Notes: a model not told the origin generated them from the sequence alone. A DNA stretch of 60,852 nucleotides from Bacteroidales bacterium (GCA_024682995.1 JAIKYR010000043.1:1-60852); one strand, 5' to 3'. Shown: positions 1,029 to 28,066, counted from the stretch's first letter. Numbers and translations are program-made.

Positions 1029-2186
1029 TCACGCCCCGGCGAGCAGCCAAAACATCGCTATGCCCAAGTAGTTGCCCACGGCGTACCCCAACAGTCCGAT
1101 GGCGATGCCCGGCAGGATGACATCCTTGTTCTTCAGCACGGCAGCCACCATCGGTACAAAAGGCGGCGAATTGATGAACGCAATGGAAGCGGCCAGCGTC
1201 AGGTCGCCATCCACCTTAAACAGTTTGGCGAGCAACATTTGTAACGCCAGCGATCCGAACACCGCAAATCCGATATAATAGAGAACAAACAGGTAGCGCG
1301 ACAATTCCAGGTCATGTACATTCACCATCATGGCCACCGCCAGACAGAACACATAAACGAAATACAAGCCCATATCGAAGGTACCTTCCAATTTTCTCAT
1401 AGGTTTCCAAAAAGAAACAGCTATGGATAAAGTAGTTATGACTATAATGATGACGGCAACGTTGTTTTTTATCGGCAACAACAGTGAAACGGCATACGCC
1501 ACCGCGGCAATCAGGATGGCGACGCCGACACCTGCTGCACGGTTAAGCAGTAATTCCGGCCAAGTTTTTTTTTCAGATTCCCTGATTCCAACATTGTCGT
1601 TTCCCACATAATTATCATCCTTCTTTTTTCCAAAGACTTTTCTTATTATTATATTTCCAAAAAACACTATAACAATAAGATACAGCCCCGTAATAATCAG
1701 ATCGTAGCCAGAGACAAGCAGAAACAGATGCTGCGGCAGCGACACGGCCTTGGATACGGGTGCCAGATTGGGGATGCCGCCGATGTAGATGCCTGTCATC
1801 ACGGCACTGATTTTCGCGAAATCCGTCCCCTCTACCCCAGATGCCATCGCTTGTCCCCGGAACAGGAAGAAACCCGCCACCGTGACAGCCAGCACACTGA
1901 ATAGCCCGATGAAAAAGGCCTTCAGCGCCATCTTCGCCGACAGCGATTTGTAATCACAACCCAGCAGCATGAGGGGGATGGTGAGCAGCACCACCCCATT
2001 GGAGACTTGGGAGCAGATGTTCGTCGCATTCACTCCCAGCCATCCGCAATTGCCCACGACCAACCCAATGACATACAAAATCACCATTGGACTGATCTTC
2101 TCAATGATGGGCCAGCGTCGAGCCAGCAACATCAGCACAAGAGGGTTACCGAAAAGGAATAGTATAGTGAGCATAACAATAAGCAT
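1029..2186 (-). CDS. DUF819-family multi-pass membrane protein
   Basis: About 11 hydrophobic helices; G-x-Y-I-G-G-x-P-N and SPPFVP..GYAVGNYLG motifs; start moved to MLIVML because the longer ORF runs through the promoter. Confidence 0.75.
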   Translation of the reverse strand: MLIVMLTILFLFGNPLVLMLLARRWPIIEKISPMVILYVIGLVVGNCGWLGVNATNICSQVSNGVVLLTIPLMLLGCDYKSLSAKMALKAFFIGLFSVLAVTVAGFFLFRGQAMASGVEGTDFAKISAVMTGIYIGGIPNLAPVSKAVSLPQHLFLLVSGYDLIITGLYLIVIVFFGNIIIRKVFGKKKDDNYVGNDNVGIRESEKKTWPELLLNRAAGVGVAILIAAVAYAVSLLLPIKNNVAVIIIVITTLSIAVSFWKPMRKLEGTFDMGLYFVYVFCLAVAMMVNVHDLELSRYLFVLYYIGFAVFGSLALQMLLAKLFKVDGDLTLAASIAFINSPPFVPMVAAVLKNKDVILPGIAIGLLGYAVGNYLGIAMFWLLAGA

Positions 2187-2210
2187 TGCTTGGGTCTTCA
2201 GAAAACGGCA

Positions 2211-2262
2211 GCAAAAGTACAAAAACCGCATCACTTTTATTCCAAAATTTTAATACTTTTGC
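2211..2262. promoter_or_regulatory. Back-to-back Bacteroidetes housekeeping promoters (-7 boxes)
   Basis: gcaaaagta (TACTTTTGC on minus) at 2211 and tacttttgc on plus at 2254. Confidence 0.6.
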
Positions 2263-2314: not shown

Positions 2315-3874
2315 ATGAAATATAGAAAACCAACATCCACTCTGTTACTCACTTTGCTTTTCCTAATGGGTTTTCTGACGATTGGCGCGCAAACCCGATG
2401 CGACTCCGTGTTGCTCACCCCTGACGCCACCATATCGGTCGGGCAGAGTGTTCTCCTTCAAGCGCACAACCTGTTCGATTACCAGTGGCTGCCGGCATCC
2501 GCCTTCAACGACCCCACCGACAGTGTACAAACAGTCTCCCCTACCACCACCTCAACCTATCACATCACCGGGCATTACATATCCGACAACGTAGTCACCA
2601 ACGGCAATTTCGAGAGTGGCAATACCGGGTTCGTCACTGACTATAACTACTCAAACACCGTCTCCTCCTACGGTTGGGGCACTGCCATCATCGGCAATTC
2701 AAATTCCTACACCATCAACACAAGCTCCGCCAACGTCCATTCCCATTTTGCCACCTACAACTGCACCGACCACACCTCCGGTTCCGGACAGTGCATGTTT
2801 GTCAACGGTTCCGGCACGCCCAACACCTGTGTTTGGCAGCAGACCATTCAGACAACCCCGAACACAGATTACATCTTCATAGCCTGGGTGGCCACCCTGT
2901 CATCCAACCCGACTTCCAGTGGAAGTGCCCGAGCGAGTCTCCAGTTCAGCATCAACGGACAGTCCATTGGATCCACCTTTAACTCGCCACCGCAAACCGC
3001 CACATGGGAACGCTTCTATCAACCCTGGAACAGCGGGAACAACACACAGGCGATTATCAAAATCATCAACCAAAACACGGAAGAGGGCGGCGGCAACGAT
3101 TTCGCCCTTGACGACATCAGTTTCTCGCCACTGTATCCCTGCACCGACTCGGTGACGGTGACTGTGGAAATCCCCTTGGACGCCGTGGACGACCAGGTGG
3201 CAGCCTGCCGAGGAACCTCGCTGACCATGCGTCCATTGGACAATGACATCATTGACAATTGGTGCGGTACAGTGCAGCCCGAAATCATTCAGCAGCCCGC
3301 ACACGCCAACGCCCAAGTGAGCAACACCGACATCACCATCAACTTCGACCCCACTTTCACTGGCACTGAAACCATGAAATACAGGATTTGCTGTGGCGGG
3401 AAATGCGACACGGCCGAAATAACCCTCGTCACATCGGGCAAAAACGGAGAAATGTTCGAACAAGCCTGCGACCGCTATACCTGGAACGGACAGACCTATT
3501 CCCAATCGGGAGCCTATACCCATCGCTACATCTCCGCCGACGGTTGCGACAGCATCGTCACCCTCTACCTCACCATCGACGACTGTTCCATACCTGTGCA
3601 TCTGCCCTCCGCCATCTCTCCCAGCATATCCGACGGGCACAACGACCGTCTCTCGCTGCCCGACATCGTGAAACCGCAGATGATGGAGTTCAAAATCCGC
3701 ATATTCGACCGATGGGGAAACCTTGTGTTCTATTCAGAAGACAAAGACTTTGTGTGGGACGGCACGCGCAACGGCAAGCTGCTGCCCAACAGCGTATATA
3801 TCTACGACTTGCGTTACAAAACCGAAACGGACAGCGAGCCGGTTGTGCTCCAAGGGACCATCACCGTACTCTGA
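2315..3874 (+). CDS. T9SS cargo protein with type B (gliding-motility-associated/CHU_C) C-terminal domain, lectin/CBM-like and Ig-like domains
   Basis: Signal peptide; NGNFE...NDFALDDISF domain; AVDD..PLDND Ig-like repeat; C-terminal PSAISP..DGHND..IFDRWGNLVF..WDG..YIY..GTITVL. Confidence 0.85.
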   Translation: MKYRKPTSTLLLTLLFLMGFLTIGAQTRCDSVLLTPDATISVGQSVLLQAHNLFDYQWLPASAFNDPTDSVQTVSPTTTSTYHITGHYISDNVVTNGNFESGNTGFVTDYNYSNTVSSYGWGTAIIGNSNSYTINTSSANVHSHFATYNCTDHTSGSGQCMFVNGSGTPNTCVWQQTIQTTPNTDYIFIAWVATLSSNPTSSGSARASLQFSINGQSIGSTFNSPPQTATWERFYQPWNSGNNTQAIIKIINQNTEEGGGNDFALDDISFSPLYPCTDSVTVTVEIPLDAVDDQVAACRGTSLTMRPLDNDIIDNWCGTVQPEIIQQPAHANAQVSNTDITINFDPTFTGTETMKYRICCGGKCDTAEITLVTSGKNGEMFEQACDRYTWNGQTYSQSGAYTHRYISADGCDSIVTLYLTIDDCSIPVHLPSAISPSISDGHNDRLSLPDIVKPQMMEFKIRIFDRWGNLVFYSEDKDFVWDGTRNGKLLPNSVYIYDLRYKTETDSEPVVLQGTITVL

Positions 3875-3895: not shown

Positions 3896-4303
3896 TTACC
3901 GGTCGGGCAGTCCTGCGTGCCGGTTGGCACGGCGCTCCGTGTAAAAATCGTAATAATTGCTTCCTTCTTTTTTGAAAGCCAGATGCAGGATGGAGGGTAT
4001 GCCGATAATGAGCAGGTAGAGCGGCCCGAACAATTTGGAATCCACGGTGTGTCCGTCCATCTCATGGCGGATAGTGTGTGCGTTGTGCGCATATTCGGGA
4101 TGAAAGAAGGCGAAACTGCCCAGCGAGATGCCGCTGGCGTTCTTCGGGAAGCGTTTTCCGGCGAAGCCGATGCAATAGTGACGGTAATCCACAAAGGTCA
4201 ACCGCCCCAGAAAGGGCATGACGAGCAGCGCCACCAGATTCTGCGGCAGCTGCCATAGAAACAACAGTGCGAACATAAGACTGTTACAGAACATCACTTT
4301 CAT
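3896..4303 (-). CDS. Small membrane-associated hypothetical protein with zincin-like motif
   Basis: WQLPQN, GISLG, HEMDGH, GPLYL..IGIPS, E..A motifs; own -7 box at 4307-4315. Confidence 0.65.
   Translation of the reverse strand: MKVMFCNSLMFALLFLWQLPQNLVALLVMPFLGRLTFVDYRHYCIGFAGKRFPKNASGISLGSFAFFHPEYAHNAHTIRHEMDGHTVDSKLFGPLYLLIIGIPSILHLAFKKEGSNYYDFYTERRANRHAGLPDR
4200..4296 (+). repeat. 97-bp direct repeat, copy A (5' part of the 3896-4303 gene)
   Basis: 84/97 identical to 14241-14337 by manual alignment. Confidence 0.95.
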
Positions 4304-4430
4304 GCGGCAAAAGTAATCATTTTGCTAATGCAGACCAAACAATCTGCATGAAAATGCTATATTTGCAACGTTTAATCTTAACGCTGATCTTGAATCATTT
4401 TATAATATAACTCCCTTAATTTCACCCCAT

Positions 4431-7400
4431 ATGAACATCAAACGCTTTTCATTTGGAAACATCATTTTTGTCTTTTTTTTATTAATTGTCTGCTGTCAGG
4501 TTTCAAACGCCCAGAACACCATAGAGTTGCTGTTTACAGGCGTTGACCAGCACAATAATTATGTGAAAATCAACAGCATAGCCATTGAAAACCTGACACG
4601 AGGCTGGTCGGAGACTATCCTGTTTCCAGACACCGTCTTCACCCTGGAAATGGGCGTTGGTGTGGAGGATTACCGGCAGGAGGGGACCATGCAAGTGATG
4701 CCCAACCCCTTTGACGGGAGGACACGGGTCAACATTCCATCTTTCCAAAATGAAACTGTAACGATGTTTTTGGCTGATATTAACGGGAAAAAATGTGCCA
4801 CATTTACCGGGGTTCTCACCCGTGGGGACAACATCTTCGAGATCTCCCTAACCACTCCTCAAGTGTATGTGCTGTCGGTCATCACTCCGTCCGGCACCCG
4901 CAGTTTGAAGATGGTCAACAGAGGTCATGCGGGCACAGACCGAATCAGAGCGGAAAGCAACACAGGGAAGTCGGCAAAGGTGGATTTGAAAAGCACCTCC
5001 ACCCATGACTTTGAATTGGGTGACGAGATGCGATATACCGGCCACACCTCTGTGAACGGGATCACGCTGCAGAGCAGTGTGGTGACCCAAACCCAATATA
5101 TAAGCGAGAATATCACATTAGTGTTCGATGTCGCATCCGGAAGCACCCATGTAACTACCGACTCCATTCAGCTCCACAGCGACGGGACCCTGAGTTGCTA
5201 TGGTTCGGTGCAGTCCGGCCAGCCCATACTTGACCGGGGGTTCTGTTATAGCACAGCACACTACCCTACCATTGACGATTACCGTATTCAAAGCGGCACC
5301 GGCACAGGAGCATTTAACAGCACGATTACCGACTTGGACCCCTCCCTAATCTGGCACATCAGAGCATACGCCACCACCGCCGCCACTACAATCTATGGTG
5401 CCGAATACACCCTTATGGTAAAAATCAATTACACCAACACAGATACCATGTTCATTCCGGATGGAGTAGCTTGCGATGGCAACTGCGGTCGAAACTCTTA
5501 TATCAACATCACAAATCAACCGGCCGGAAGTACAATCCAAAGCATCGAAGACATCCGTTATTTCCGCCTCAAAATGGAACACTCCTGGATTGGCGACCTC
5601 TGGATTTCTTTATCCTGCCCGAACCAACAAAGCGTGACAATACTGAAAAAAAACGCGTCTAGCATTAACGGTAACTGTGCCTCAGCCATACCTGCAACCG
5701 CACTGGGGTGGAGCACAACCGATGCTTCACATGCACATTTTGGTTTGTACTACGAACCCGACGGATATGGGCATTGCAACGGTGATGGAAGCCCAATCGG
5801 TGAATGTTGGAACTACTGCTGGTCAAATGCAGCCACCCAAGGCTACCAATATGCCTGTGGACAGGGTCTCGTGTATGAAAGCTGCAACCACCTGGACAAC
5901 GTTGACAACCCCCATGGTGGTGCATCTGGTTCATCTTCTTCTAATTACGTTGATTCCACCAATATGGCCACTATGACCAACGTGTATCATCCCGACGAAT
6001 CTTTCGCCAACCTCATAGGGTGTCCCCTCAACGGCATCTGGAGCATTCAAGTGGTTGATGCATGGGCCAGCGACAACGGCTACATCTGCGAATGGGAATT
6101 GGCCCTGAATCCAAATACTCCCGTATTCCTCTCCGAAACAGAAGTGTCGGAAACACCCTGTCCGCAGGCGGCGTCCGTCACCGATTATGATGGCAACGTG
6201 TATGGCACGGTGGCCATTGGCAGTCAATGCTGGATGCGGGAGAACCTGCGCACCACCCACACCGCCAGCGGCACCGCCATCATCCCCGGCAATGGGACAG
6301 ATGCGGGCACAGCACACTACTATCTGCCATCCGCATCCGACAGCAGCGGCATCTACGGACACCTATACAATTGGAAGGCCGCCGAAAACGTATGCCCTGA
6401 TGGCTGGCATCTGCCCTCCGACTCGGAATGGGCCCAACTGACGGACTTCCTTGGCAGTCTGGACACCTGCGTGTGCGGAGACAACCCGAACAATGTCGCA
6501 AGAGCCATGGCCAGTGACACTTTCTGGTCTCCTTCCAGCACCCCTTGCGCCGTGGGATCAGACCTTTCTCTGAACAACATCAGCAATTTCTCCACCCTGC
6601 CTGTAGGCTATACCAATGGCACACCCACTGCATTCGGGACAACAGCCCGATTCTGGACTGCCACCTCCTACAACAATGACTACGCTTATTACCGTTCCCT
6701 GTACCACGACAACGGATTTGTGGAGCGCAACCCGTATGGAGACAAAGCCCACGGCATGTCCGTACGATGCATCCTGGCAAAAACGCCGAAGGTGACCACC
6801 GCCGCCGTGACCAATGTGACAGACTCCACGGCCGTATGCGGTGGTGAGGTGACCAGCATCGGAGGCGCACCCATGACGGAAAGGGGCCTTTGCTGGAGCA
6901 CCCATGCGTATCCGACTATAGGAGACAATCTTGTCGCTTGCGGGGCCGGGTTAGGGACTTTCACCGGACAAATGACAGGGCTGATCCCCGGCACCACCTA
7001 CTATGTGCGGGCGTATGCCACCAATGCGGCAGGAACCGTTTACGGAGCCTCAAGGACCTTCTCCACTCTTACAATCCCCACCGTGACCACCCAAAACGTG
7101 GGCAACATCTGGGACAGCACAGCCACTTGCGGCGGAAACATATCCTATGACGGCGGATCACCCGTGACAACCCGAGGCGTCTGTTGGGGTACCGCTCCCA
7201 ATCCTACCATCGCTGACAACCACACCTCTGACGGTTCCGGCATCGGAACATTCTCAAGCCAGCTGACAGGACTGGTTCCGGGCACAGACTACAACGTGCG
7301 AGCTTATGCCATCAATAGCATTGGCATAGCCTATGGAGAACAAAAATCCTTCACCACGAAATCCGCACCCACCATAACCCTAAATCAAGCCACCAACATC

Positions 7401-10400
7401 CTGAGCCTTACAGCTTCCTGCACCTATTATATCAATTCCAATGGCCAGATGACAATCACAAACCGCGGTATTTGCTACAGCACAACCCCCAACCCTACCC
7501 TAAACGACAGCGTGATTGCAGGTACAGCAAACACGGGCACCCTACAATTGTCAGGCCTGACACCCGGCACCACCTACTACGTAAGAGCCTACGCCACCAA
7601 TGCCATTGGCACCAGCTATAGTGCCCAGATTTCATTTACCACACAGACTATCCCCACGCTGACGACGGCGGCAGTGAGCGACATCGATTTCTTCACAGCC
7701 ACGGGCGGCGGCGAAGTGCTGAACACTGGTGTACCTGCCATTACGGCTCGGGGCGTTTGTTGGAACACATCACCCAACCCCACCATCGCTAATAGTCATA
7801 CCTCCGACAGCACCGGCTTCGGAACATTCGTCAGCCAACTGACGGGTTTGACTATTCACACCACTTATTACGTGCGAGCTTATGCCACCAACAGTTCCGG
7901 CACCGGTTACGGCGAACAAGTAACCTTCACCACTTTGAACATTCCGACAGTAACCACCAAAAATGTCACCAACATTTTAGACAGTACAGCCACCTGCGGC
8001 GGTTCGCTCACCTCCAATGGTGATGGAACACTGCTGGCCACGGGCATCTGTTGGAGTACGGCTATGAGTCCCACCATCAACGACTTTGTGGCTACAGACA
8101 CGTCCCTCCAATCCAACTTCACTTGCACCATGACTGGTTTGATTCCAAACACCACGTATTACGTGCGGGCCTTTGCCACCAACGGAGGTGGCACAGCTTA
8201 TGGTCCACAGCGTAATTTTACTACCAAATCCCTACCTACTATAACCCTTGATTCTGCCACCAACATCACAAGTCACACAGCCTCCTGCACCTATCATGTC
8301 ACATTTGCAGGCAACATGGCGGTAACCGCAAGGGGAATATGCTACAGCACCACACCGAATCCCACTCTCCAAGACAGCGTAATTGCGGGCACAAGCAGCA
8401 ATGGAACCATCCAATTGACGGGTCTAACAGCCAGCACCACCTACTATGTGCGGGCTTACGCCACCAACGGAATCGGCACCAGCTACAGCAACCTTATCTC
8501 CTTTACCACATTAAGCATTCCCACATTGACGACGGCGGCGGTGACCGACATCGATTTCTTCACAGCCACCAGCGGCGGCGAAGTGCTGAACACCGGCGTA
8601 CCGGCCATCACGGCCCGAGGTGTTTGCTGGAGCACATCATCCCAACCCACCATTGACGACAACCACACCTCCGACAGTACCGGCTTCGGAGTATTCACGA
8701 GCCATCTGACAGGACTGGTTCCCAACACCACATACTATGTGCGTGCATACGCCATCAACAGTGCAGGTATCAATTACGGCAACCAAATTGTCTTTGCCAC
8801 ACCGAGAACACCCACAGTTTCAACCAAAACCATAAACAATATCACAGACAGTTCGGCCACCTGCGGCGGCAATGTCACCTCCAATGGCGGCGCAATGCTA
8901 TTGGCCACTGGCGTATGCTGGAGCACTTCTCAGAATCCCACCATCAACGATTTTGTTGTCACAGATTCCACCGCTCAACCGAATTTCACCTGTGTGATGA
9001 CGGGATTGGTCCCCAACACTCAGTATTACGTTCGGGCATTCGCCACAAACGGAGGTGGAACCTCCTATGGCGTACAACGCAGCTTCATCACCAGGGCCAT
9101 ACCTACAATAGCTCTTGACACTATCACCAACATTCAGAGTCTCAGTGCCTCTTGCTCTTATCACCTTGTTTATAACGGCGGCGTGAACGTGTCGGACAGG
9201 GGCATTTGCTACAGCACCACCCCCAATCCCACCCTAAACGACAGTGTGATTGCAAGTACTGCAAACACAGGCACCCTACAACTGTCAGGCCTGATTCCCG
9301 GAACCACCTACTATGTGCGAGCCTACGCCACCAACAACTTTGGCACCGGCTATAGCAATCAAATCTCTTTCACCACACTAACCATTCCTACGGTAATAAC
9401 AACCCCAATAAGCGATGTTTCCTTCTTCACAGCCACGGGCGGCGGCGAAGTGCTGGCCACTGGTGTGCCTGCCATCACTGCCCGGGGCGTTTGCTGGAGC
9501 ACAGAGCCTTATCCCACCATTGCCGACAGCCTCACCTCAGACAGTACCGGCTTCGGAACATTCACAAGTCATCTGACCGGTCTGACACCCGGCACCACCT
9601 ACCACGTGCGGGCGTACGCCATCAACAACTCCGGCATTAGCTACGGAGAAGATCTGACATTCACCACAGTATCTGTTAAAACCGAATTGATAACACAATA
9701 CACAGACACCACAGCTCTGGCTGGCGGCTCTTTGACTCCCATCAACGGCAGCACCACGGCAAATTTCGGAGTTTCTGACTGGGGAATATGCTGGAGCACC
9801 ACACCCAACCCATCCGTGCATAACAATATTATCCTGAGTACAGGCACGTTAACCCACTTCACCTGCAACATGACAAATCTCACCTCTGGCAACGCCTATT
9901 GCGTACGGGCTTTTGTCACCATCAATGGAGATACACTGTATGGAAATGAAGTCAGTTTCACCACAAAAGAAGCGGGAATCCAATCCTGCCCGGGAGTTGC
10001 TACCGTAACCGATATTGACGGCAACACTTATAACACAGTGAAAATTGGCGATCAGTGCTGGACGAAGGAGAATATGCGCGCCACCCGTTATTCAGACGGC
10101 ATATCCATTCCCTTGGGGAACACTTCCAGTGGTACCCCATATCACCGTTATTATCCAAATGACTCTATAATCAATGTACCTGTCTATGGATATATGTACG
10201 ACTGGCCTACAACGATGCACGGTGGAATCAGCACCAATGCAACCCCCATTCAAGGGGTATGTCCCAATGGATGGCATGTACCAAGCCATGCGGAATGGTC
10301 ATCTATGGAACAATATGTAAGTAACCATAACACCTTCACATGCAACAACAGCACACCCTGTACCGCTAAAGCTCTCGCCTCGAAAAGAGGATGGATTGGC

Positions 10401-13400
10401 TGTTGGTTCTGCACATCCGAAGAAAACAACACATCGGGTTTCTCCGCCTTCCCTGCAGGCATTGACAATAGAGTATTCGGCGAAAGCGCCTATTTTTGGA
10501 CTTCTTCGAGTGATGAATATGGATGGGAAGCACGCTGTCACTATATCTACTATGAGAGTTGTAGCATAGATAATTTCACCAATAACACAAATTATGGACG
10601 CTCTGTCCGATGCATTTATGGTACAGGATATAATATACCTGTCGTGAAAACCGCATCCGTTTCCAGTCTCGGCTATAGCAGTGTGGCCTGTGGTGGGGAA
10701 ATCACCTCCAACGGTGGCGCAAGCGTAACCCAACGTGGTGTATGCTGGAGCACCCAACCGAATCCGAGTATTGATTTCAATAATAACATTACTGTAAACG
10801 GCAACGGATCCGGCTCATTTAGCAGCAATGTCACCGGTTTAACTCCTGGCACCACCTATTATATGCGAGCATACGCCACCAACAGTGCCGGCACCGCTTA
10901 TGGACAGCAAGTCACATTTACCACACTGAATATACCTGTAATCACCACCAAACCCGTGACCAACATACTGGACAGTACCGCTGTTTGCGGCGGCGTCATC
11001 ACCTTTGTCGGCGACGGTCCCATTATGGCCAAAGGCGTATGCTGGAAAACTTCCGTGAATCCGACGGTTAATGACCATATTACCACAGACACCTCTGCGC
11101 AAGCCGACTTCAACTGTCTGCTGACGGAGCTCACACCCGGCACCCGCTATTATGTCCGGGCTTTCGCCACAAACGCTGGTGGAACCGTTTACGGGGCCCA
11201 AGAAAGTTTCTACACTTCAGATGTAAAACCAACCGTTTCCACCGATATGGTGTATGACATCACCACCAATTCTGCTATCGGTGGCGGCCACATCGTTTCC
11301 ACAGGTCTGTCCAACATCACGGCACAAGGTGTATGCTGGAGCACATCCTCAAATCCAACTATTGCCGACAACCACACATCCGACAGCATCGGCACCAGTG
11401 TTTTCTCAAGCAACATCACAGGGCTTGTCACAGGCACCTTGTACCATATCCGTGCCTACGCCACCAACAGTTCGGGTACTGGCTATGGAGAAGATGTGGC
11501 TTTTTTCACTTTAGGAAATCCTTCACAAGACAACCAGCCCTGCCCCAACACACCTACTTTGACCGACTTTGACGGCAACACCTATAACACGGTGAAGATT
11601 GGGCAACAGTGCTGGATGAAGGAGAACCTGCGAACCACCCATTACGCGAACGGCACAGCTATCCCTTCCGGCACCACGAGCAGTACTACAAGCCCATATT
11701 ATTATTACAACTCATCTTCTGGCATTGCTTTGGCTCAACGCGGCTATTTGTATAATTGGGCTGCTGCCATGCACGGTGAAAACTCCTCCGATGCCATTCC
11801 TTCCGGCGTTCAGGGAATCTGTCCCACAGGATGGCACTTGCCTTCCTCCAGCGAATGGAGACAACTCAACACCTATGTAGGTGCCCAAAGCCAATACCTT
11901 TGCAACGGCAATTCCAGATACATAGCCAAGGCGTTGGCCTCCACCACGGGATGGAACGAACATTACGATGATTGCACAGTGGGCAACATCCTTATGAACA
12001 ACAATGCCACTGGATTCTCTGCCATGCCTGTCGGATACTATACGTCTAATGGGAATCACAGCGTCGGCATCTTTACTGCCTTCTGGTCCTCCACCAACAG
12101 TTCTTCAGATTATACAAATATTCTCTCAATGAGTTCAATGTCACCGTATTCGGCCATAGGAACTGACAGGTCTGACTACTATTATTCTGTCCGCTGCCTG
12201 CAAAATGGAAGTATCAGTGGCCTGACAATTCCCACAATCACGACCAATAGTGTGAGCAACGTGATACCCACCTCTGCCCAATGTGGTGGTGATGTAATCT
12301 GCCATGACGAAGTGCCCATCACCGCCAAAGGTATCTGTTGGAGTACGGCGCACAATCCGACAACAGATGACAACCACACGTCTGATGGCAGTGGAGCAGG
12401 AAGTTTTGGCAGCAGTATGACAGGACTGACTCCCGGTGTCACATACTACGTGCGAGCATACGCCGTGAGCGATGCCCTCACCGCCTACGGCAATGAAATC
12501 TCCTTCACCACGCTGGCAGACGGAATACCCTGCGTGGGTGTTGAAACCGTTACCGACATTGACAGCAACGTTTACAATACGGTTCAGATTGGCCAACAAT
12601 GTTGGATGAAGGAAAATCTACGCACGACACACTATCCTGATGGAGAACTGATACCCATAGGTGGCACTTCACAAGACATGTATCCCACCCGTTATGCACC
12701 AGACAACAACATTGCCAACGTACCTGCATACGGATACCTTTACAGTTGGTCAGCAACCATGCATGGGGCCGCTTCCAGCAACTCAAACCCCAGTGGTGTG
12801 CAAGGAATCTGTCCCGATGGCTGGCATGTCCCAAGTCATGCGGAATGGCTCCAGCTTTTCAACTATGTTAGCAATCAAAGCGGTTATATGTGTTCAAAAA
12901 ACAATGGGTCGTCATCTTATGCTAAAGCATTGGCAGCCCCGACAGGATGGTTGGATTATGACTACAATACGGACACTTGGCCTGACGCATGCAGCCCCGG
13001 ATGGCGGCAACAGGGAAGCAACAACGCCACCGGCTTCTCCGCCATGCCCGCCGGATACCACCAAATGCATATTTACGGTTCTTTTGGCCGATTTGGTAAC
13101 TATTGGAGTTCAACCCAAAGTAGTGCCAACCAATGTCATGCCTATTTCTGGGGGTGGAGTTTGGATACGGTATGCATAACCACATTCACCTTTTTTGACT
13201 CGCTTGGCGTCTCTCGTAGTTCGTCTGTTCGCTGTATCCGCAATGCGAATTGGCTGCCTTCTGTTTCAACAAATCCCGTATCATGCAACACCAGCAACAA
13301 GGCTTTCATCAGTGGAAACATCTCAAACGAAGGATCAGCATCTGTCACTGCAAGAGGTGTTTGCTGGAGCACCTCCCACAACCCCACCATTTCCGACAGT

Positions 13401-14240
13401 CACACCAGTGATGGTACTGGCACTGGCTCTTTCAGCACTACAATCACCGGACTACAGCCTTCCACCACCTATTATGCAAGGGCGTATGCCACCAACCATT
13501 ACGGCACTGAATATGGTGATGAGATGAGTTTCACTACTCTTGCTTCCACCAATACGATTCCGGACGGCCAGCCCTGCCCATGCTCGGCTACCGTCACCGA
13601 CATTGACAGTAACACATACAACACGGTGAAGATAGGCAATCAATGCTGGATGAAAGAGAATCTGCGTGTTTTGCACTACGCTAATGGGGAAAACATCCCC
13701 ACTGGGACCCAAGGAAGCTATACCGTTTCCTATTATTACGATTATCCTTCTGGTTTTGCATTGGAGGATCGCGGATATCTGTACAACTGGGCAGCGGTAA
13801 TGCACGGTGTAAACAGCAGCACGGCAAATCCCAGCGGCGTACAAGGTGTCTGTCCAACCGGCTGGCATGTGCCAAGTGAGGCAGAATGGGATCAACTCAC
13901 CAGTTACATGGGCCAAGGCCAATATGCATGCGGAAATTCCAGTTTGTATTTTGCAAAAGCCTTGGCTACCACCACAGGATGGAACACCAGCACTGTCACC
14001 TGTGCGGTAGGCAACACCCCCAGCACGAATAACGCTTCAGGCTTCTCTGCATTCCCAGCAGGTCTTTGGTATAATGGAAGCACATCCAACACATCCGTTT
14101 TTGCCACATTCTGGACTTCTACAGAGGATGACAACAATCAAGCAAAGAGAAAAATTTTACTGAATTCAAGTGTCAGCATGAGCGGTGGAGGCATCCACGA
14201 CAAAAGATACGGCATGTCCGTCCGTTGCCTGCAAGACTAG
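4431..14240 (+). CDS. Giant (3269 aa) surface protein: signal peptide, CTD-like Ig domain, proprotein-convertase-P-like domain, 17 FN3-like repeats, 5 Fibrobacter succinogenes major paralogous (Fib_succ_major/FISUMP) domains
   Basis: Five D-x-D-G/S-N-x-Y-x-TV-x-IG-x-QCW-x-x-EN...CP-x-GWH-x-PS...SVRC domains; repeated RGVCWST..NPT..LTGL.PGTTYYVRAYATN units; EHSWIGDL...LNGIWSIQVVD..DNGYICEW domain. Confidence 0.9.
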   Translation: MNIKRFSFGNIIFVFFLLIVCCQVSNAQNTIELLFTGVDQHNNYVKINSIAIENLTRGWSETILFPDTVFTLEMGVGVEDYRQEGTMQVMPNPFDGRTRVNIPSFQNETVTMFLADINGKKCATFTGVLTRGDNIFEISLTTPQVYVLSVITPSGTRSLKMVNRGHAGTDRIRAESNTGKSAKVDLKSTSTHDFELGDEMRYTGHTSVNGITLQSSVVTQTQYISENITLVFDVASGSTHVTTDSIQLHSDGTLSCYGSVQSGQPILDRGFCYSTAHYPTIDDYRIQSGTGTGAFNSTITDLDPSLIWHIRAYATTAATTIYGAEYTLMVKINYTNTDTMFIPDGVACDGNCGRNSYINITNQPAGSTIQSIEDIRYFRLKMEHSWIGDLWISLSCPNQQSVTILKKNASSINGNCASAIPATALGWSTTDASHAHFGLYYEPDGYGHCNGDGSPIGECWNYCWSNAATQGYQYACGQGLVYESCNHLDNVDNPHGGASGSSSSNYVDSTNMATMTNVYHPDESFANLIGCPLNGIWSIQVVDAWASDNGYICEWELALNPNTPVFLSETEVSETPCPQAASVTDYDGNVYGTVAIGSQCWMRENLRTTHTASGTAIIPGNGTDAGTAHYYLPSASDSSGIYGHLYNWKAAENVCPDGWHLPSDSEWAQLTDFLGSLDTCVCGDNPNNVARAMASDTFWSPSSTPCAVGSDLSLNNISNFSTLPVGYTNGTPTAFGTTARFWTATSYNNDYAYYRSLYHDNGFVERNPYGDKAHGMSVRCILAKTPKVTTAAVTNVTDSTAVCGGEVTSIGGAPMTERGLCWSTHAYPTIGDNLVACGAGLGTFTGQMTGLIPGTTYYVRAYATNAAGTVYGASRTFSTLTIPTVTTQNVGNIWDSTATCGGNISYDGGSPVTTRGVCWGTAPNPTIADNHTSDGSGIGTFSSQLTGLVPGTDYNVRAYAINSIGIAYGEQKSFTTKSAPTITLNQATNILSLTASCTYYINSNGQMTITNRGICYSTTPNPTLNDSVIAGTANTGTLQLSGLTPGTTYYVRAYATNAIGTSYSAQISFTTQTIPTLTTAAVSDIDFFTATGGGEVLNTGVPAITARGVCWNTSPNPTIANSHTSDSTGFGTFVSQLTGLTIHTTYYVRAYATNSSGTGYGEQVTFTTLNIPTVTTKNVTNILDSTATCGGSLTSNGDGTLLATGICWSTAMSPTINDFVATDTSLQSNFTCTMTGLIPNTTYYVRAFATNGGGTAYGPQRNFTTKSLPTITLDSATNITSHTASCTYHVTFAGNMAVTARGICYSTTPNPTLQDSVIAGTSSNGTIQLTGLTASTTYYVRAYATNGIGTSYSNLISFTTLSIPTLTTAAVTDIDFFTATSGGEVLNTGVPAITARGVCWSTSSQPTIDDNHTSDSTGFGVFTSHLTGLVPNTTYYVRAYAINSAGINYGNQIVFATPRTPTVSTKTINNITDSSATCGGNVTSNGGAMLLATGVCWSTSQNPTINDFVVTDSTAQPNFTCVMTGLVPNTQYYVRAFATNGGGTSYGVQRSFITRAIPTIALDTITNIQSLSASCSYHLVYNGGVNVSDRGICYSTTPNPTLNDSVIASTANTGTLQLSGLIPGTTYYVRAYATNNFGTGYSNQISFTTLTIPTVITTPISDVSFFTATGGGEVLATGVPAITARGVCWSTEPYPTIADSLTSDSTGFGTFTSHLTGLTPGTTYHVRAYAINNSGISYGEDLTFTTVSVKTELITQYTDTTALAGGSLTPINGSTTANFGVSDWGICWSTTPNPSVHNNIILSTGTLTHFTCNMTNLTSGNAYCVRAFVTINGDTLYGNEVSFTTKEAGIQSCPGVATVTDIDGNTYNTVKIGDQCWTKENMRATRYSDGISIPLGNTSSGTPYHRYYPNDSIINVPVYGYMYDWPTTMHGGISTNATPIQGVCPNGWHVPSHAEWSSMEQYVSNHNTFTCNNSTPCTAKALASKRGWIGCWFCTSEENNTSGFSAFPAGIDNRVFGESAYFWTSSSDEYGWEARCHYIYYESCSIDNFTNNTNYGRSVRCIYGTGYNIPVVKTASVSSLGYSSVACGGEITSNGGASVTQRGVCWSTQPNPSIDFNNNITVNGNGSGSFSSNVTGLTPGTTYYMRAYATNSAGTAYGQQVTFTTLNIPVITTKPVTNILDSTAVCGGVITFVGDGPIMAKGVCWKTSVNPTVNDHITTDTSAQADFNCLLTELTPGTRYYVRAFATNAGGTVYGAQESFYTSDVKPTVSTDMVYDITTNSAIGGGHIVSTGLSNITAQGVCWSTSSNPTIADNHTSDSIGTSVFSSNITGLVTGTLYHIRAYATNSSGTGYGEDVAFFTLGNPSQDNQPCPNTPTLTDFDGNTYNTVKIGQQCWMKENLRTTHYANGTAIPSGTTSSTTSPYYYYNSSSGIALAQRGYLYNWAAAMHGENSSDAIPSGVQGICPTGWHLPSSSEWRQLNTYVGAQSQYLCNGNSRYIAKALASTTGWNEHYDDCTVGNILMNNNATGFSAMPVGYYTSNGNHSVGIFTAFWSSTNSSSDYTNILSMSSMSPYSAIGTDRSDYYYSVRCLQNGSISGLTIPTITTNSVSNVIPTSAQCGGDVICHDEVPITAKGICWSTAHNPTTDDNHTSDGSGAGSFGSSMTGLTPGVTYYVRAYAVSDALTAYGNEISFTTLADGIPCVGVETVTDIDSNVYNTVQIGQQCWMKENLRTTHYPDGELIPIGGTSQDMYPTRYAPDNNIANVPAYGYLYSWSATMHGAASSNSNPSGVQGICPDGWHVPSHAEWLQLFNYVSNQSGYMCSKNNGSSSYAKALAAPTGWLDYDYNTDTWPDACSPGWRQQGSNNATGFSAMPAGYHQMHIYGSFGRFGNYWSSTQSSANQCHAYFWGWSLDTVCITTFTFFDSLGVSRSSSVRCIRNANWLPSVSTNPVSCNTSNKAFISGNISNEGSASVTARGVCWSTSHNPTISDSHTSDGTGTGSFSTTITGLQPSTTYYARAYATNHYGTEYGDEMSFTTLASTNTIPDGQPCPCSATVTDIDSNTYNTVKIGNQCWMKENLRVLHYANGENIPTGTQGSYTVSYYYDYPSGFALEDRGYLYNWAAVMHGVNSSTANPSGVQGVCPTGWHVPSEAEWDQLTSYMGQGQYACGNSSLYFAKALATTTGWNTSTVTCAVGNTPSTNNASGFSAFPAGLWYNGSTSNTSVFATFWTSTEDDNNQAKRKILLNSSVSMSGGGIHDKRYGMSVRCLQD
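7365..9965 (+). repeat. Higher-order tandem repeat of three FN3-like subtypes (ABC)x3, 867-bp period
   Basis: Subtype A starts at 7365, 8232 and 9099 (289-codon spacing); third C unit is diverged. Confidence 0.85.
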
Positions 14241-14339
14241 AACCGGCCCAGAAAGGGCATCACGAGTAGAGCCACCAGATTCTGCGGCAGCTGCCAAAGG
14301 AACAATAACGCGAATATAAGACTGTTGCGGAGCATCATC
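14238..14339 (-). pseudogene. Truncated second allele of the 3896-4303 gene (MMLRNSLIFALLFLWQLPQNLVALLVMPFLGRF*), approximate bounds; contains direct repeat copy B (14241-14337)
   Basis: Start overlaps the stop of the upstream 14338-15111 gene (TGATG); ends at the palindromic CTAG shared with the giant gene's stop. Confidence 0.85.
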
Positions 14340-15111
14340 AATTCATCTTGCCTAATCGTATGCCAACTTTGACATAGCCGAAATGCAGATTGTTCTTTCG
14401 GCTAGCATGAAAAAGGGTATATCCCGCACTTACCGTAGCCCTTTGATACTCAAGGCCAAACCCCGCTTGTAATCGAAAGACAGTCATGGGGAAAAGATTA
14501 TAATACTGGCCCTGATAATACACCAATCCCCCAAAACGAGTTATGAAATCCGCTCCCAATGCCACCTCCATATAAGGATGGAATGCATTTTGTGAGGGAA
14601 AGAAGCCCCGAAGGTCCAACACAAGCGGGAAATTGGCCACATCAAAACCGGCATATCCGGCAGCGGGCGCTAAAAACAGAGCATCTATGCCAGACCCGAT
14701 TCCAATAAAAAACTTATCCCAACAACGGAATCCAAGCGCAACATTCAGCATTGGTCCGGCCTCCTCCTTCGTAAACAAACAGCCTCCCTCTATATAGGTC
14801 TGAAATATAACCTTGTTCACCAAATCATTTCCAGGTCTGTATTTGGGTTTGAGCATATATGATTCCGTCACAGCATCATTATACACCTCTTTTGTCCCAT
14901 TAGCATATTTTATATAAAAAACATCTTTCTTGGCAATCTGATACGAGGGGCCCTCCAAATTGTCCCATTTCTTATAAGTAATCTCATCAATGCCGACAAT
15001 AAGGACCTTAGCTTGTATTTCCTCCGCATTGAGCAGGACAATGACATCCTGGGCAAAAGAGGCGGAAAAGCAGGCAAAGAGAATGGCAAGTGTCAATATT
15101 ATGCGATTCAT
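14338..15111 (-). CDS. Outer-membrane beta-barrel-like protein with N-terminal small beta domain
   Basis: Signal peptide (ASFA-QD); QDVI...EEIQAKV...ITYKK N-domain; alternating beta strands ending GYVKVGIRL. Confidence 0.7.
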   Translation of the reverse strand: MNRIILTLAILFACFSASFAQDVIVLLNAEEIQAKVLIVGIDEITYKKWDNLEGPSYQIAKKDVFYIKYANGTKEVYNDAVTESYMLKPKYRPGNDLVNKVIFQTYIEGGCLFTKEEAGPMLNVALGFRCWDKFFIGIGSGIDALFLAPAAGYAGFDVANFPLVLDLRGFFPSQNAFHPYMEVALGADFITRFGGLVYYQGQYYNLFPMTVFRLQAGFGLEYQRATVSAGYTLFHASRKNNLHFGYVKVGIRLGKMN

Positions 15112-15297: not shown

Positions 15298-17232
15298 ATG
15301 GGAAAAATTATCGGAATTGACTTAGGAACTACAAACTCTTGCGTTGCCGTCATGGAAGGCAACGAAGCCACTGTCATCCCCAACAGCGAAGGCAGACGGA
15401 CCACGCCGTCCATCGTGGCTTTCGTGGGTGACAACGAACGTAAAATCGGTGATCCTGCCAAACGTCAGGCCATCACCAACCCCACCAAGACCATCTTCTC
15501 CATCAAGCGTTTCATGGGCGAGACCTACGACCGCGTCACGAAGGAGATTGAGCGCGTGCCCTACACCGTGGAACGCGCGGCCAACAACATGCCGAAGGTG
15601 AAAATCGACGACCGCGGCTACACCGCTCAAGAGATTTCCGCCATGATTCTTCAAAAGATGAAGAAAACGGCTGAAGACTATCTCGGCCAAGAAGTTACGG
15701 AAGCCGTCATCACGGTGCCGGCCTACTTCAGCGACTCGCAGCGTCAGGCCACCAAGGAGGCCGGTGAGATTGCCGGTCTCACGGTGAAGCGTATCATCAA
15801 CGAGCCTACCGCAGCCGCATTGGCCTACGGTCTGGACAAGAAGAAATCCGACTCCAAAGTGGCCGTGTTCGACCTCGGCGGCGGCACCTTCGATATCTCC
15901 ATCCTCGAGCTGGGCGACGGCGTATTCGAAGTGAAGTCCACCAACGGCGACACGCACCTCGGCGGCGACGACTTCGACCATAAGATCATCGACTGGCTGG
16001 CCAACGAGTTCATGAAAGACTACAACGTGGATTTGCGTAAGGACGCCATGGCCCTGCAACGTCTGAAAGAGGCTGCCGAGAAGGCCAAGATCGAGCTTTC
16101 CAGCTCCAACTCCACGGAAATCAACCTGCCGTACATCATGCCCATTGACGGCGTACCGCAACACCTGGTGCGCACGCTCACCCGTGCCCAGTTCGAACAG
16201 CTGTGCGACGACCTGATCCGCGCCACCATCGAGCCGTGCAAGAAGGCTCTGGCCGACGCCGGCTACACCACCTCCGATATTGACGAGGTGATCCTCGTGG
16301 GCGGCTCCACCCGTATCCCGGCCATCCAGGAAATCGTGGAAAAATTCTTCGGCAAGACCCCGTCCAAGGGTGTCAACCCCGATGAAGTAGTGGCCATCGG
16401 TGCTGCTATCCAAGGCGGTGTGCTCACCGGTGAGGTGAAGGACATCCTCCTGCTGGATGTGACCCCGCTGTCCCTCGGTTTGGAAACCCTCGGCGGCGTG
16501 ATGACCAAACTCATCGAAAGCAACACCACCATCCCGACCAAGAAGACGGAGACGTTCACCACGGCCGTTGATAACCAGACCTCTGTGGAAATCCACGTGC
16601 TGCAAGGCGAACGTCCGATGGCAGCCCAGAACAAGAGCATCGGCCGCTTCCACCTGGACGGCATCCCGGCCGCACAACGCGGCGTGCCGCAAATCGAAGT
16701 CACCTTCGACATCGACACCAACGGCATCCTCAGTGTGACAGCCAAAGACAAAGCCTCCGGCAAGGAACAGAAGATCCGCATCGAAGCCTCTTCCGGCCTC
16801 TCCGATGACGAAATCAAACGGATGAAGGCCGAGGCCGAAGCCAACGCCGATGCCGACAAAAAAGCCAAGGAGGAAATCGACAAGCTGAACGCCGCCGACA
16901 GCCTGGTGTTCCAGACCGAAAAGCAGCTCAAGGAGTTCGGCGACAAGGTGCCCGCTGACGACAAGGCCAAGATTGAGGCTGCGGCAGCCAAGCTGAGAAC
17001 CGCACACGACAACAAGGATTTCGCCGCCATTGACGCCGCCACGGCTGAGTTGCAGGGCGCTTGGCAGGCCGCTTCCGCCAAGATGTACCAACAGGGCGGT
17101 GCCCAACAGCCCGGCGCCGACTTCAACGCCGGTGGATTCAACCAGCAGGCTGGCCAACAAGGTCCGCAGGGTGGTACCCACAACGGCAACGACGGAGAAG
17201 TCCAAGACGTTGATTTCGAGGAGGTCCATTAG
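15298..17232 (+). CDS. dnaK: Chaperone DnaK (Hsp70)
   Basis: [32 protein letters not shown]-terminal DVDFEEV. Confidence 0.99.
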
Positions 17233-17317: not shown

Positions 17318-17320
17318 AAA

Positions 17321-17579
17321 CAATGACATAGAAGTTGACCTATCATTATCCTTATGGCATCGCAGGATGTCAATTATCATAGCTGAATGATTTGTTCTTC
17401 ACCTATGATTGAGCGGGTGTCAGCAACGATCCATTGTCCGCACATCCGTGCGGGCATCTTAAAACTCCCCTTCTGTTGCAGAAGGGGAGTTGACTTCGTG
17501 CGGCACCAAGGTGCCACAAGCATTATTAACAATGGAAAAATGTCGCCATAATCTTCTTGGGTCAACTTCTATATCATTG
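17321..17579. other. 259-bp structured element with 20-bp terminal inverted repeats (MITE-like or ncRNA)
   Basis: caatgacatagaagttgacc / ggtcaacttctatatcattg (19/20) enclosing nested stems. Confidence 0.6.
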
Positions 17580-28028: not shown

Positions 28029-28066
28029 CTATTAATTATTAATTGTTAATTGTTAATTGTTAATTG
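28029..28066 (-). repeat. Heptamer tandem repeat (CAATTAA)n supplying the uvrA stop
   Basis: caattaacaattaacaattaacaattaataattaatag on minus strand. Confidence 0.9.

What the first reader, a model, noticed from the sequence alone, without database searches (positions are those of the whole stretch)
4200..14337. 10-kb giant-adhesin block bracketed by two alleles of a neighbour gene's 5' end, with no integrase
Seen: 4200-4296 and 14241-14337 are 84/97 identical direct repeats with a 26-bp identical core (gccaccagattctgcggcagctgcca). Homology begins at the first base after the giant gene's TAG, and the palindromic CTAG acts as the stop on both strands. Copy B is a truncated reading frame translationally coupled (TGATG) to the upstream barrel gene. 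Copy A heads the intact gene and has its own -7 box. Ten of the 13 differences are synonymous, so both copies diverged as functional coding sequence. Inference: the block came from a related lineage and entered the resident gene Campbell-style or by homology-assisted recombination, supplying a replacement promoter and 5' end. It could loop out again by recombination between the repeats, restoring the barrel-gene operon.
Basis: partly seen in the sequence, partly recalled or inferred. Interest (0 to 1): 0.7.

Follow-up and report, generated by a model that had tools for sequence, protein, structure and literature searches.

The report
Old gene-insertion scar splitting an operon
A 10-kb gene for a giant surface protein was inserted long ago into the start of a small membrane-protein gene in a rumen Bacteroidales lineage, leaving a 97-base stub of the old gene start; it is a fixed recombination scar and not an active mobile element.

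Summary
Window 4200-4296 and 14241-14337 are 84/97 identical direct repeats. They are the 5' end of an intact 135-aa gene (copy A) and a 33-codon stub (copy B) still coupled by TGATG to the upstream barrel gene. Between them lie one 3269-aa FISUMP/fn3 gene and a 127-nt promoter region.

The predicted empty site exists. In three same-genus genomes (G024, G046, G041) the barrel gene is directly followed by the intact small gene, and G024 and G046 show no giant-gene orthologue.

A second species (G054) and metagenome contigs L089/L090 carry the same filled layout. Contigs from four sequencing runs bridge both junctions, so this is not a mis-assembly.

The event is old. In G054 the stub has a stop codon and the barrel gene is deleted. 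A and B differ mostly at synonymous sites (10 of 13; pS 0.44, pN 0.04), so they are diverged functional alleles and not a fresh target duplication. The 26-nt core encodes WQLPQNLVA, which is conserved family-wide and is not an attachment site.

No integrase, transposase, tRNA or inverted repeat was found, and no excised form was seen.

Best reading: a one-off homology-anchored import, either one-ended or Campbell-type (unresolved), later blurred by recombination between lineages.

The parts
1029..2234 (-). DUF819 membrane protein gene. It is part of the conserved left flank, present next to the small gene in G024, G046, G041, G054 and L089.
   Evidence: Pfam PF05684 E=5e-32; orthologues
2315..3874 (+). 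T9SS type-B sorting-domain (CHU_C) protein gene in the left flank. It is present in G024 and G054 and absent at this place in G046, G041 and L089.
   Evidence: PF13585 E=1.4e-14 and TIGR04131
3896..4303 (-). Intact small gene (135 aa, no Pfam or NCBIfam family, motifs WQLPQNLVA and HEMDGH). In relatives it lies directly downstream of the barrel gene.
4200..4296 (-). Repeat copy A: codons 4-35 of the intact small gene.
4304..4430 (.). 127-nt intergenic region that came with the block. It holds TAnnTTTG boxes at 4315-4308(-) for the small gene and 4358-4365(+) for the giant gene. Within the genus it matches only G054; it is also present in L089 and L090.
4431..14240 (+). Giant gene, 3269 aa: signal-peptide-like N-terminus, about 15 fn3-like repeats of 291 nt, five FISUMP domains. 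The last domain is complete to 2 residues before the stop.
14237..14240 (.). CTAG palindrome that provides the TAG stop of the giant gene (+) and of the copy-B stub (-). This is the illegitimate junction, and homology to the small gene begins at 14241.
   Evidence: the same junction in G054
14241..14337 (-). Repeat copy B: a 33-codon 5' stub of the resident small gene, still overlapping the barrel gene's TGA (TGATG) as the intact gene does in G024.
14338..15111 (-). Barrel gene (257 aa, no Pfam family). The nearest named Atlas cluster is 'outer membrane protein beta-barrel domain-containing protein', which is a lead only. The gene is deleted in G054.
15298..17232 (+). dnaK, the conserved right flank, divergent from the barrel gene.
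12915..14414 (.). Tract that is 97-100% identical between G000 and G054, where the surrounding DNA is about 90-93% identical. It covers the giant gene's last 1.3 kb and copy B.

Best explanation
The locus is the fixed scar of one old gene gain. The ancestor of this sub-clade had the order dnaK <> barrel gene -> small gene, translationally coupled. This order is still seen in G024, G046 and G041. In the common ancestor of G000 and G054, DNA from another lineage was recombined in. That DNA already carried a small-gene allele with its own promoter lying head-to-head with a giant FISUMP/fn3 gene. One end was anchored by homology in or beyond the small gene. The other end, immediately after the giant gene's stop codon, was joined illegitimately to codon 33 of the resident small gene. 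This is a homology-facilitated illegitimate recombination type of event. The incoming allele became the working small gene (copy A). The resident gene's first 97 nt stayed behind as a stub (copy B) coupled to the barrel gene. The stub has no function of its own and is decaying. The block has no machinery to move, and afterwards the whole region kept exchanging segments with related lineages by ordinary homologous recombination.

Shown: the insertion relative to empty sites, the shared junctions in two species, the decay of the stub, the allele-like divergence, and the absence of mobility genes.

Inferred: the one-ended mechanism and the donor's gene layout.

I put about 0.85 on 'old fixed insertion scar, not an active element' and 0.45 on the one-ended mechanism specifically.
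For: Empty sites: in G024 the barrel gene (95% aa) is followed directly by the intact small gene (92% aa), with the same TGATGATG overlap and the same left flank. G046 and G041 also have barrel and small adjacent.

The giant gene has no orthologue in G024. Its best DNA matches there are 65-70% identical paralogue domains. In the genus only G054 has an orthologue (89% aa over the first 600 aa); the next best matches are 52% (55 genomes).

The same layout and the same junction letters are found in G054. Contigs of 4 runs from 4 studies bridge both junctions.

Age and decay: in G054 the stub has CAG>TAG and the barrel gene lacks window 14405-15109. The B copies of G000 and G054 differ with pS = pN = 0.04.

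Allelic origin: A against B gives pS 0.44 and pN 0.04 (Fisher p=2.5e-5). That pS is as deep as G000-G024 gene pairs (pS 0.15-0.52).

The junction is abrupt, with no repeat or inverted repeat. The last FISUMP domain is complete.

Other small-gene homologues have their own TAnnTTTG-type upstream regions and other neighbours, so a donor with a promoter-bearing allele is plausible. Barrel lies upstream in only 3 of 28 loci.

No integrase, transposase or tRNA was found.

One-ended anchoring with an illegitimate far joint is a described process and has been proposed for displaced gene remnants elsewhere (PMC5361080, passages read; PMC3240628, abstract in the search listing only).
Against: No donor-type locus was found, meaning a small gene, the A-type promoter and this giant gene together without a stub. 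The promoter block matches only G054 in the genus.

The 93-nt tree is unresolved apart from B+B' (92/94), so a foreign origin of copy A is not shown phylogenetically.

The site pattern has B like G024 in the first 42 nt (3 differences against 9 for A) and A closer to B in the last 54 nt. This fits a crossover inside the repeat (Campbell) or later recombination at least as well as a pure resident stub.

The low barrel dS between G000 and G024 (0.16, against 0.39-0.90 for the left-flank genes DUF819, small and CHU_C and 0.31-0.63 for dnaK 5' and M13) shows later exchange that may have rewritten the stub. That would weaken inference from today's sequence.

A joint exactly at the stop codon is improbable for a random illegitimate end and remains unexplained.
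Confidence: 0.45

Rival explanations
1. A circular DNA carried the giant gene, the promoter region and the first 97 nt of a foreign small-gene allele. It integrated by a single (Campbell-type) crossover inside the 97-nt homology, perhaps in the conserved 26-nt core. The block can loop out again by recombination between the repeats and restore the operon.
For: The structure is exactly what a single crossover with a 5'-end fragment gives: one intact and one truncated copy in direct orientation. The mosaic site pattern fits a crossover near the core. Upstream of the core B resembles G024 (3/42 differences) and A is the outlier (9/42). Downstream of the core A shares G024's state at 2 of the sites where the copies differ and B at none (my count gives 5:1 against 0:2, Fisher p about 0.1). 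G024's own gene is B-like at the 5' end and A-like at the 3' end, which is also what an excision product would look like.
Against: No circular or excised form was seen: none of the 15 joints listed (of 57) in 4 runs links the repeats (contigs only). The arrangement is fixed across two species while the stub and the barrel gene decay. That is not expected if excision were frequent or selected. The repeats are only 87% identical, with 26 nt as the longest identical run. The core is conserved in the whole family for coding reasons. The site counts are too small to be significant, and the tree is unresolved. The model also needs an unexplained circle whose closure joint lies exactly at the giant gene's stop codon.
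Confidence: 0.2
2. The giant gene entered by two illegitimate joins, or a replication template switch, that duplicated 97 nt of the target. Copies A and B were identical at first and diverged in place.
For: Insertions flanked by a duplication of the target are a common outcome of staggered breaks (general knowledge). In L089 a second small-gene stub of 262 nt is most similar to the intact copy beside it (91.7%) and carries many amino-acid changes. That looks like an in-place duplication followed by decay.
Against: Ten of the 13 A/B differences are synonymous (pN/pS about 0.1). A truncated stub should have drifted neutrally, as the G000/G054 stubs do (pS = pN). The A-B distance (14/96) is not smaller than B-G024 (13/96), although G024 has the empty site. 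The 127-nt promoter region adjoining copy A is new DNA, and its boundary with the repeat falls exactly at the start codon. That fits two differently embedded alleles better than a copied target.
Confidence: 0.1
3. The polarity is reversed. The filled arrangement is ancestral for the sub-clade, and G024, G046 and G041 lost the giant gene by recombination between the two repeats.
For: A lineage about as distant from G000 as G024 and G046 are (L089/L090, 79-86% nt) also has the giant gene at the same A-side junction. G024's small gene is a B-like/A-like mosaic.
Against: This needs three independent precise losses, including in G041, whose barrel gene is only 45% identical. Barrel-small coupling in the empty sites uses different junction sequences (TGATG in G024, TAAAGGATG in G046), which argues for old, independently evolving intact operons. 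A stub can only arise from an intact barrel-small pair, so that pair must be older than the block.
Confidence: 0.08
4. The repeat is an assembly artefact, with a chimeric join at 14240 or 4300 in a metagenome-assembled genome.
For: The genome is a fragmented MAG (181 contigs, 87.75% complete), and the giant gene is internally repetitive.
Against: Contigs in 4 runs of 4 studies span 3300 to at least 5021 and 14179-15057 or more. One of these runs may be the window's own source, so not all four are independent. G054 has both junctions on two contigs. L089 and L090 have the A-side junction.
Confidence: 0.01

Closest known systems
Homology-facilitated illegitimate recombination (one-ended anchoring), described for transformable Acinetobacter, Streptococcus pneumoniae and Pseudomonas stutzeri and for E. 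coli conjugation (PMC3240628 abstract; references listed in PMC5361080)
   Same: Foreign DNA with no counterpart in relatives sits beside a homologous anchor. The far end is an abrupt joint without repeats. Resident DNA between anchor and joint is replaced, which leaves a truncated resident gene.
   Different: The experimental cases insert hundreds to a few thousand bases, whereas this block is 9.9 kb holding exactly one gene. The donor and the uptake route are unknown here, and the mechanism is inferred from a scar and was not observed.
Displacement arrays at T6SS effector-immunity, Rhs and CDI loci (orphan modules left behind when a new module recombines in through a conserved segment; PMC5361080, passages read)
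   Same: A conserved coding segment acts as the homology anchor for an incoming module. The displaced resident piece is kept next to the newcomer as a remnant that carries a short copy of the conserved segment. No integrase is involved.
   Different: In those loci the conserved part is a 5' core and the displaced parts are 3' toxin tips with immunity genes, often stacked in series and sometimes reactivated. Here the remnant is a 5' stub of a small membrane-protein gene, the cargo is a surface-protein gene on the opposite strand, there are no toxin or immunity genes, and I found two cases (this locus and L089).
Campbell-type integration of a circular element, or of a suicide plasmid carrying a 5' gene fragment
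   Same: Direct repeats of the gene's 5' end bracket the insert, with one intact and one truncated copy.
   Different: There is no integrase, no identical att sites and no replicon genes. The repeats are 87% identical, and no excised form was seen.
FISUMP-domain (Fibrobacter succinogenes major paralogous domain, PF09603/TIGR02145) multi-domain surface proteins of Bacteroidales and Fibrobacter
   Same: The cargo gene has five FISUMP domains and fn3-type repeats. Every genus genome but one has paralogues (54 of 55).
   Different: This particular gene is found only in G000, G054 and L089/L090. A role as an adhesin is not tested.

Membership tests
Integrative element / genomic island (Campbell-type, integrase-mediated) | Tyrosine or serine recombinase gene in or beside the element | tested here: not met
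   The block holds one ORF, the giant gene. Pfam and NCBIfam scans of the 11 large ORFs in window 1-23647 gave no integrase or transposase. ORF 27-956 has no family.
Integrative element / genomic island (Campbell-type, integrase-mediated) | Identical or near-identical att direct repeats, often at a tRNA or tmRNA gene | tested here: not met
   The repeats are 84/97 identical coding sequence. No tRNA or tmRNA gene lies in window 1-25000.
Integrative element / genomic island (Campbell-type, integrase-mediated) | Excised circle or restored empty junction within a population that carries the element | tested here: inconclusive
   No joint linking 4200-4296 to 14241-14337 is among the 15 listed of 57 joints in 4 runs. 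These are assembled contigs, which drop rare forms.
Transposon / insertion sequence | Terminal inverted repeats, a transposase and a short identical target duplication | tested here: not met
   0 inverted repeats of 30 nt or more in window 1-25000; no transposase; the flanking repeat is 97 nt and diverged.
Product of homology-facilitated illegitimate recombination | Insert absent from relatives that keep both flanks adjacent | tested here: met
   Empty sites in G024, G046 and G041; no orthologue of the giant gene in G024.
Product of homology-facilitated illegitimate recombination | One abrupt non-homologous joint with truncation of a resident gene | tested here: met
   Homology to the small gene stops at 14241/14240, directly at the giant gene's stop. 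G054 has the identical joint.
Product of homology-facilitated illegitimate recombination | The anchor side is donor DNA that runs continuously into homologous sequence | tested here: inconclusive
   The left flank is more diverged from G024 than the right flank (83% against 93% nt; dS 0.39-0.90 against 0.16 for barrel). However, gene-to-gene dS is mosaic everywhere, also between G000 and G054 (0.11-0.58), and the tree is unresolved.
FISUMP-domain protein (PF09603 / TIGR02145), the cargo gene | Match to the family model above the curated cut-off | tested here: met
   PF09603 526.6 bits (cut-off 33.9), 5 stretches; TIGR02145 493.9 bits (cut-off 41.65). The last domain covers model positions 1-186 of 187.
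Outer-membrane beta-barrel protein (the 'barrel gene') | Match to a beta-barrel family model or a predicted barrel fold | tested here: inconclusive
   No Pfam or NCBIfam family at E<=0.01. The Atlas feature search puts it beside a cluster auto-named 'outer membrane protein beta-barrel domain-containing protein' (score 0.98) and one with PF13505 on 18% of members. No structure was predicted.

The most novel reading that the evidence does not exclude
The nucleotide-conserved 5' segment of the small gene (WQLPQNLVA core) is a recurrent landing pad. Giant surface-protein genes, each travelling with a promoter and a small-gene 5' end, are repeatedly captured, displaced or swapped there without any recombinase. 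This would be a surface-protein counterpart of Rhs/CDI/T6SS orphan arrays. Two differently cut stubs support recurrence: at nt 97 next to the barrel gene in G000/G054, and at nt 262 behind an A-type promoter in L089.
Probability: 0.12. Interest if true: 0.6.

Novelty: new member of a known kind. Interest (0 to 1): 0.35.

Why it matters
This is a clean, datable example of how a very large surface-protein gene can be added to a gut or rumen Bacteroidales genome without any mobile-element machinery. An operon was split, the downstream gene was rescued by an imported allele with its own promoter, and the upstream barrel gene was later lost in one descendant. It also shows that short, diverged direct repeats around big genes can be scars of homology-anchored recombination and need not be att sites, which matters when such repeats are used to call genomic islands. 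It does not open a new kind of system.

Tried and rejected
(1) A phylogeny of the 93 shared bases across 9 copies, and of the small gene's 3' part across 6 copies, was unresolved. Only the two B stubs group (92/94), so no donor could be inferred.

(2) Search for a donor arrangement. The promoter block plus giant-gene start (window 4297-5200) matched only G054 over its whole length among 55 genus genomes. Other hits begin at query base 211 or later, inside the coding region, at 64-79% identity. The giant N-terminus gave only paralogues of 52% or less apart from G054.

(3) Search for more stubs. The degenerate core motif found only the known copies in the genus (15 matches in 12 of 55 genomes). 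Across species representatives it found 31 stretches: 28 full-length homologues, 2 with no small-gene match, and 1 chance match inside an ATPase gene. The exact-match scan cannot see a stub that carries a mismatch, such as G054's.

(4) Reads. All 24 runs found are held as assembled contigs, with no raw reads. No excision joint is among the 15 listed of 57, and the listed joints inside the giant gene have short sides (23-46 nt) typical of repeats or other organisms. This cannot show absence.

(5) Naming the small gene. There was no Pfam or NCBIfam hit. The Atlas gave only unnamed clusters, and the eCIS_core lead at 0.89 is below the trust level.

(6) Rfam over the whole window gave no match at gathering score.

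(7) The sigma-70-type promoter and terminator scans are not suited to Bacteroidetes promoters. No terminator-like site follows the giant gene's stop.

(8) One dS value (patatin, G000 against G024) came from a mis-framed alignment and was dropped.


Full report
**1. The observation**

Window 4200-4296 and 14241-14337 are a two-copy direct repeat of 97 nt at 87% identity (84/97; family D10).

Copy A is the 5' end of ORF 3896-4303(-), which encodes a 135-aa protein with no Pfam or NCBIfam family. Copy B is read on the minus strand from ATGATG, which overlaps the TGA of ORF 14338-15111(-). It runs for 33-34 codons and ends in a TAG. That TAG and the TAG of the giant ORF 4431-14240(+) share the palindrome CTAG at 14237-14240. 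Similarity to the small gene begins at 14241.

The giant ORF (3269 aa) has five FISUMP domains and many fn3-type repeats. Its last FISUMP domain is complete to two residues before the stop, so the block ends exactly at the natural end of the gene.

A TAnnTTTG box lies 4 nt before copy A's first ATG (4315-4308, minus strand), and another lies at 4358-4365(+) ahead of the giant gene. The first is conserved in G054 and in both L089 copies. That this motif is the Bacteroidetes -7 promoter element is recalled knowledge.

Ten of the 13 differences between the copies are synonymous.

**2. Empty and filled sites in relatives**

The window is contig C142 of a 2.59-Mb, 181-contig MAG. Relatives found by motif are uncultured Bacteroidales, mostly from ruminants (record titles). 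The runs that hold the window's DNA are ruminant gut metagenomes.

Empty sites:
- G024 is about 87% identical at nucleotide level over 13 kb of the window. Its barrel gene (95% aa) is followed directly by the intact small gene (92% aa), with the same TGATGATG overlap. The CHU_C and DUF819 genes follow, as in the window.
- G024's single 5' end aligns to both window copies.
- G046 and G041 also have barrel and small adjacent, although G041's barrel protein is only 45% identical.
- The giant gene has no orthologue in G024, where the best DNA matches are 65-70% identical paralogue domains.
- Among 55 genus genomes only G054 has an orthologue (89% aa over the first 600 aa); the next best are 52%.

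Filled sites:
- G054 has the same layout. Contig C96 matches window 10520-1 and contig C87 ends at window 10518, so the two contigs abut inside the repetitive gene. Both junctions are present with the same junction letters.
- Metagenome contigs L089 and L090, from a lineage 79-86% identical to all of the above, carry the A-side junction.
- Contigs from four runs of four studies span both junctions. The A side is covered from 3300 to at least 5021 and the B side over 14179-15057 or more. One of these runs may be the window's own source.

The arrangement is therefore real and is not a mis-assembly.

**3. Age and fate**

The event predates the split of G000 and G054, whose typical dS is about 0.3 (range 0.11-0.58).

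In G054 the stub has an in-frame CAG>TAG, and the barrel gene is deleted except for its last 19 codons (window 14405-15109 is missing). Between the two stubs pS equals pN (0.04). The stub therefore behaves as a decaying remnant and not as a maintained mini-gene or attachment site.

No integrase, transposase, tRNA or inverted repeat lies in or beside the block.

**4. Are the two copies alleles?**

A against B gives pS 0.44 and pN 0.04 (Fisher p=2.5e-5). This divergence is as deep as that between G000 and G024 genes (pS 0.15-0.52), and it was accumulated under coding constraint. A truncated stub could not have accumulated it in place.

B shares GCG/GTG-TTA with G024 and L089, where A shares GCA-CTG with the more distant G041.

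There are limits to this inference:
- A tree of the 93 shared bases is unresolved apart from the two stubs (92/94).
- The region is a recombination mosaic. Barrel dS between G000 and G024 is 0.16, against 0.39-0.90 for the left-flank genes (DUF819, small, CHU_C) and 0.31-0.63 for dnaK 5' and M13.
- G000 and G054 are 97-100% identical over window 12915-14414 but about 90-93% identical around it.
- L089's intact gene combines the A-type promoter with a B/G024-like coding start that is 93% identical to copy B.

Later exchange may therefore have rewritten parts of either copy. The near-identical G000/G054 tract could also reflect cross-binning of MAG contigs, which I cannot exclude.

**5. The 26-nt core**

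The core encodes WQLPQNLVA. With synonymous wobble allowed, the motif occurs once per small-gene copy:
- 15 matches in 12 of 55 genus genomes, all at copies already known.
- 31 stretches among species representatives, of which 28 are full-length homologues, 2 have no small-gene match and 1 is a chance hit inside an ATPase gene.

It is a conserved coding motif. It would make a convenient patch of homology, but its identity in A and B is not evidence of a crossover there.

**6. Mechanism**

The robust part is as follows. A barrel-small operon was split by the arrival of one promoter-plus-gene block, the small gene was rescued by a second 5' end with its own promoter, and nothing in the block can move itself.

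For the entry route I favour a one-ended, homology-anchored import (HFIR type). The donor DNA carried a small-gene allele with its own promoter head-to-head with the giant gene. Other homologues do have their own TAnnTTTG upstream regions and varied neighbours, and barrel lies upstream in only 3 of 28 loci. One end recombined homologously in or left of the small gene. The other end joined illegitimately at codon 33 of the resident gene.

This route needs only a linear fragment and is a described process. It has been proposed for displaced remnants at T6SS and Rhs loci (PMC5361080, passages read; PMC3240628, abstract from the search listing only).

The Campbell alternative is not excluded. The site pattern is compatible with a crossover near the core: B is like G024 upstream of the core, and A is like G024 at two sites downstream. 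With 8 informative sites this is not significant (my Fisher estimate is about 0.1).

An in-place 97-nt target duplication is disfavoured by the synonymous excess.

The fact that the illegitimate joint falls exactly at the stop codon is unexplained under every model.

**7. A second bracket**

L089 carries a truncated version of the giant gene (1364 aa, ending in fn3 repeats with no FISUMP domain). At that gene's 3' end lies another small-gene 5' fragment, 262 nt long, preceded by a diverged copy of the A-type promoter.

The fragment is closest to L089's own intact copy (91.7%) and has many amino-acid changes. It may be an in-place duplication that is decaying, or a second displacement event. 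The contig ends 96 nt upstream of the fragment, so this cannot be settled. It is the only hint that the site is used repeatedly.

**8. Verdict**

The locus is best seen as an old, fixed recombination scar of a gene gain. It is analogous to HFIR and displacement scars known elsewhere, and it is not a mobile element poised to excise. It is a new example of a known kind and of moderate interest.

Noticed in passing
L089:94-423 and L089:413-4507 (metagenome contig): There is a second small-gene 5' fragment (262 nt, with its own A-type promoter). It abuts the 3' end of a truncated 1364-aa version of the giant gene that lacks all FISUMP domains. About 55 nt of unassigned filler lie between them.
   Followed up: partly
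window 14405-15109 (compared with L073, G054:C87): G054 has lost almost the whole barrel gene and keeps only its last 19 codons and the stub. After being uncoupled from the small gene, the barrel gene seems dispensable.
   Followed up: partly
window 12915-14414: This tract is 97-100% identical between G000 and G054 inside a region otherwise about 90-93% identical. It reflects either a recent recombination tract or cross-binning between MAGs.
   Followed up: partly
window 14324 (run X1, table 7): One contig matches the barrel gene rightwards from 14324. To the left it continues with sequence unlike either the stub or an intact small gene. This may be a third arrangement downstream of the barrel gene in a related strain.
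   Followed up: no
window 12052-12183: Contigs of runs X1 and X3 replace 130 nt of the giant gene with 127 other letters. This is a variable segment inside the gene among strains.
   Followed up: no
L074 (G046:C31) right of the barrel gene: In G046 the barrel gene is followed by DNA matching window 60852-51605 in reverse, instead of by dnaK. This is an inversion or rearrangement with a breakpoint beside the barrel gene. G046's barrel gene is also unusually diverged (dS about 2 against 0.36-0.95 for neighbouring genes).
   Followed up: no
window 15322-17229 (-): A 635-aa open frame antisense to dnaK hits Pfam NAD-GH (PF10712) at E=6.8e-162. It lies fully inside dnaK on the opposite strand, so it is most likely not a gene.
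   Followed up: no
window 28036-28072: An AT-rich tandem run (taattgt repeats) lies in an intergenic region. Short stretches like it match many G024 contigs.
   Followed up: no
window 17318-17557: An intergenic stretch after dnaK matches several unrelated G024 contigs at 84-96% over 60-170 nt. No tRNA and no Rfam family was found there, so it may be a small dispersed repeat.
   Followed up: no
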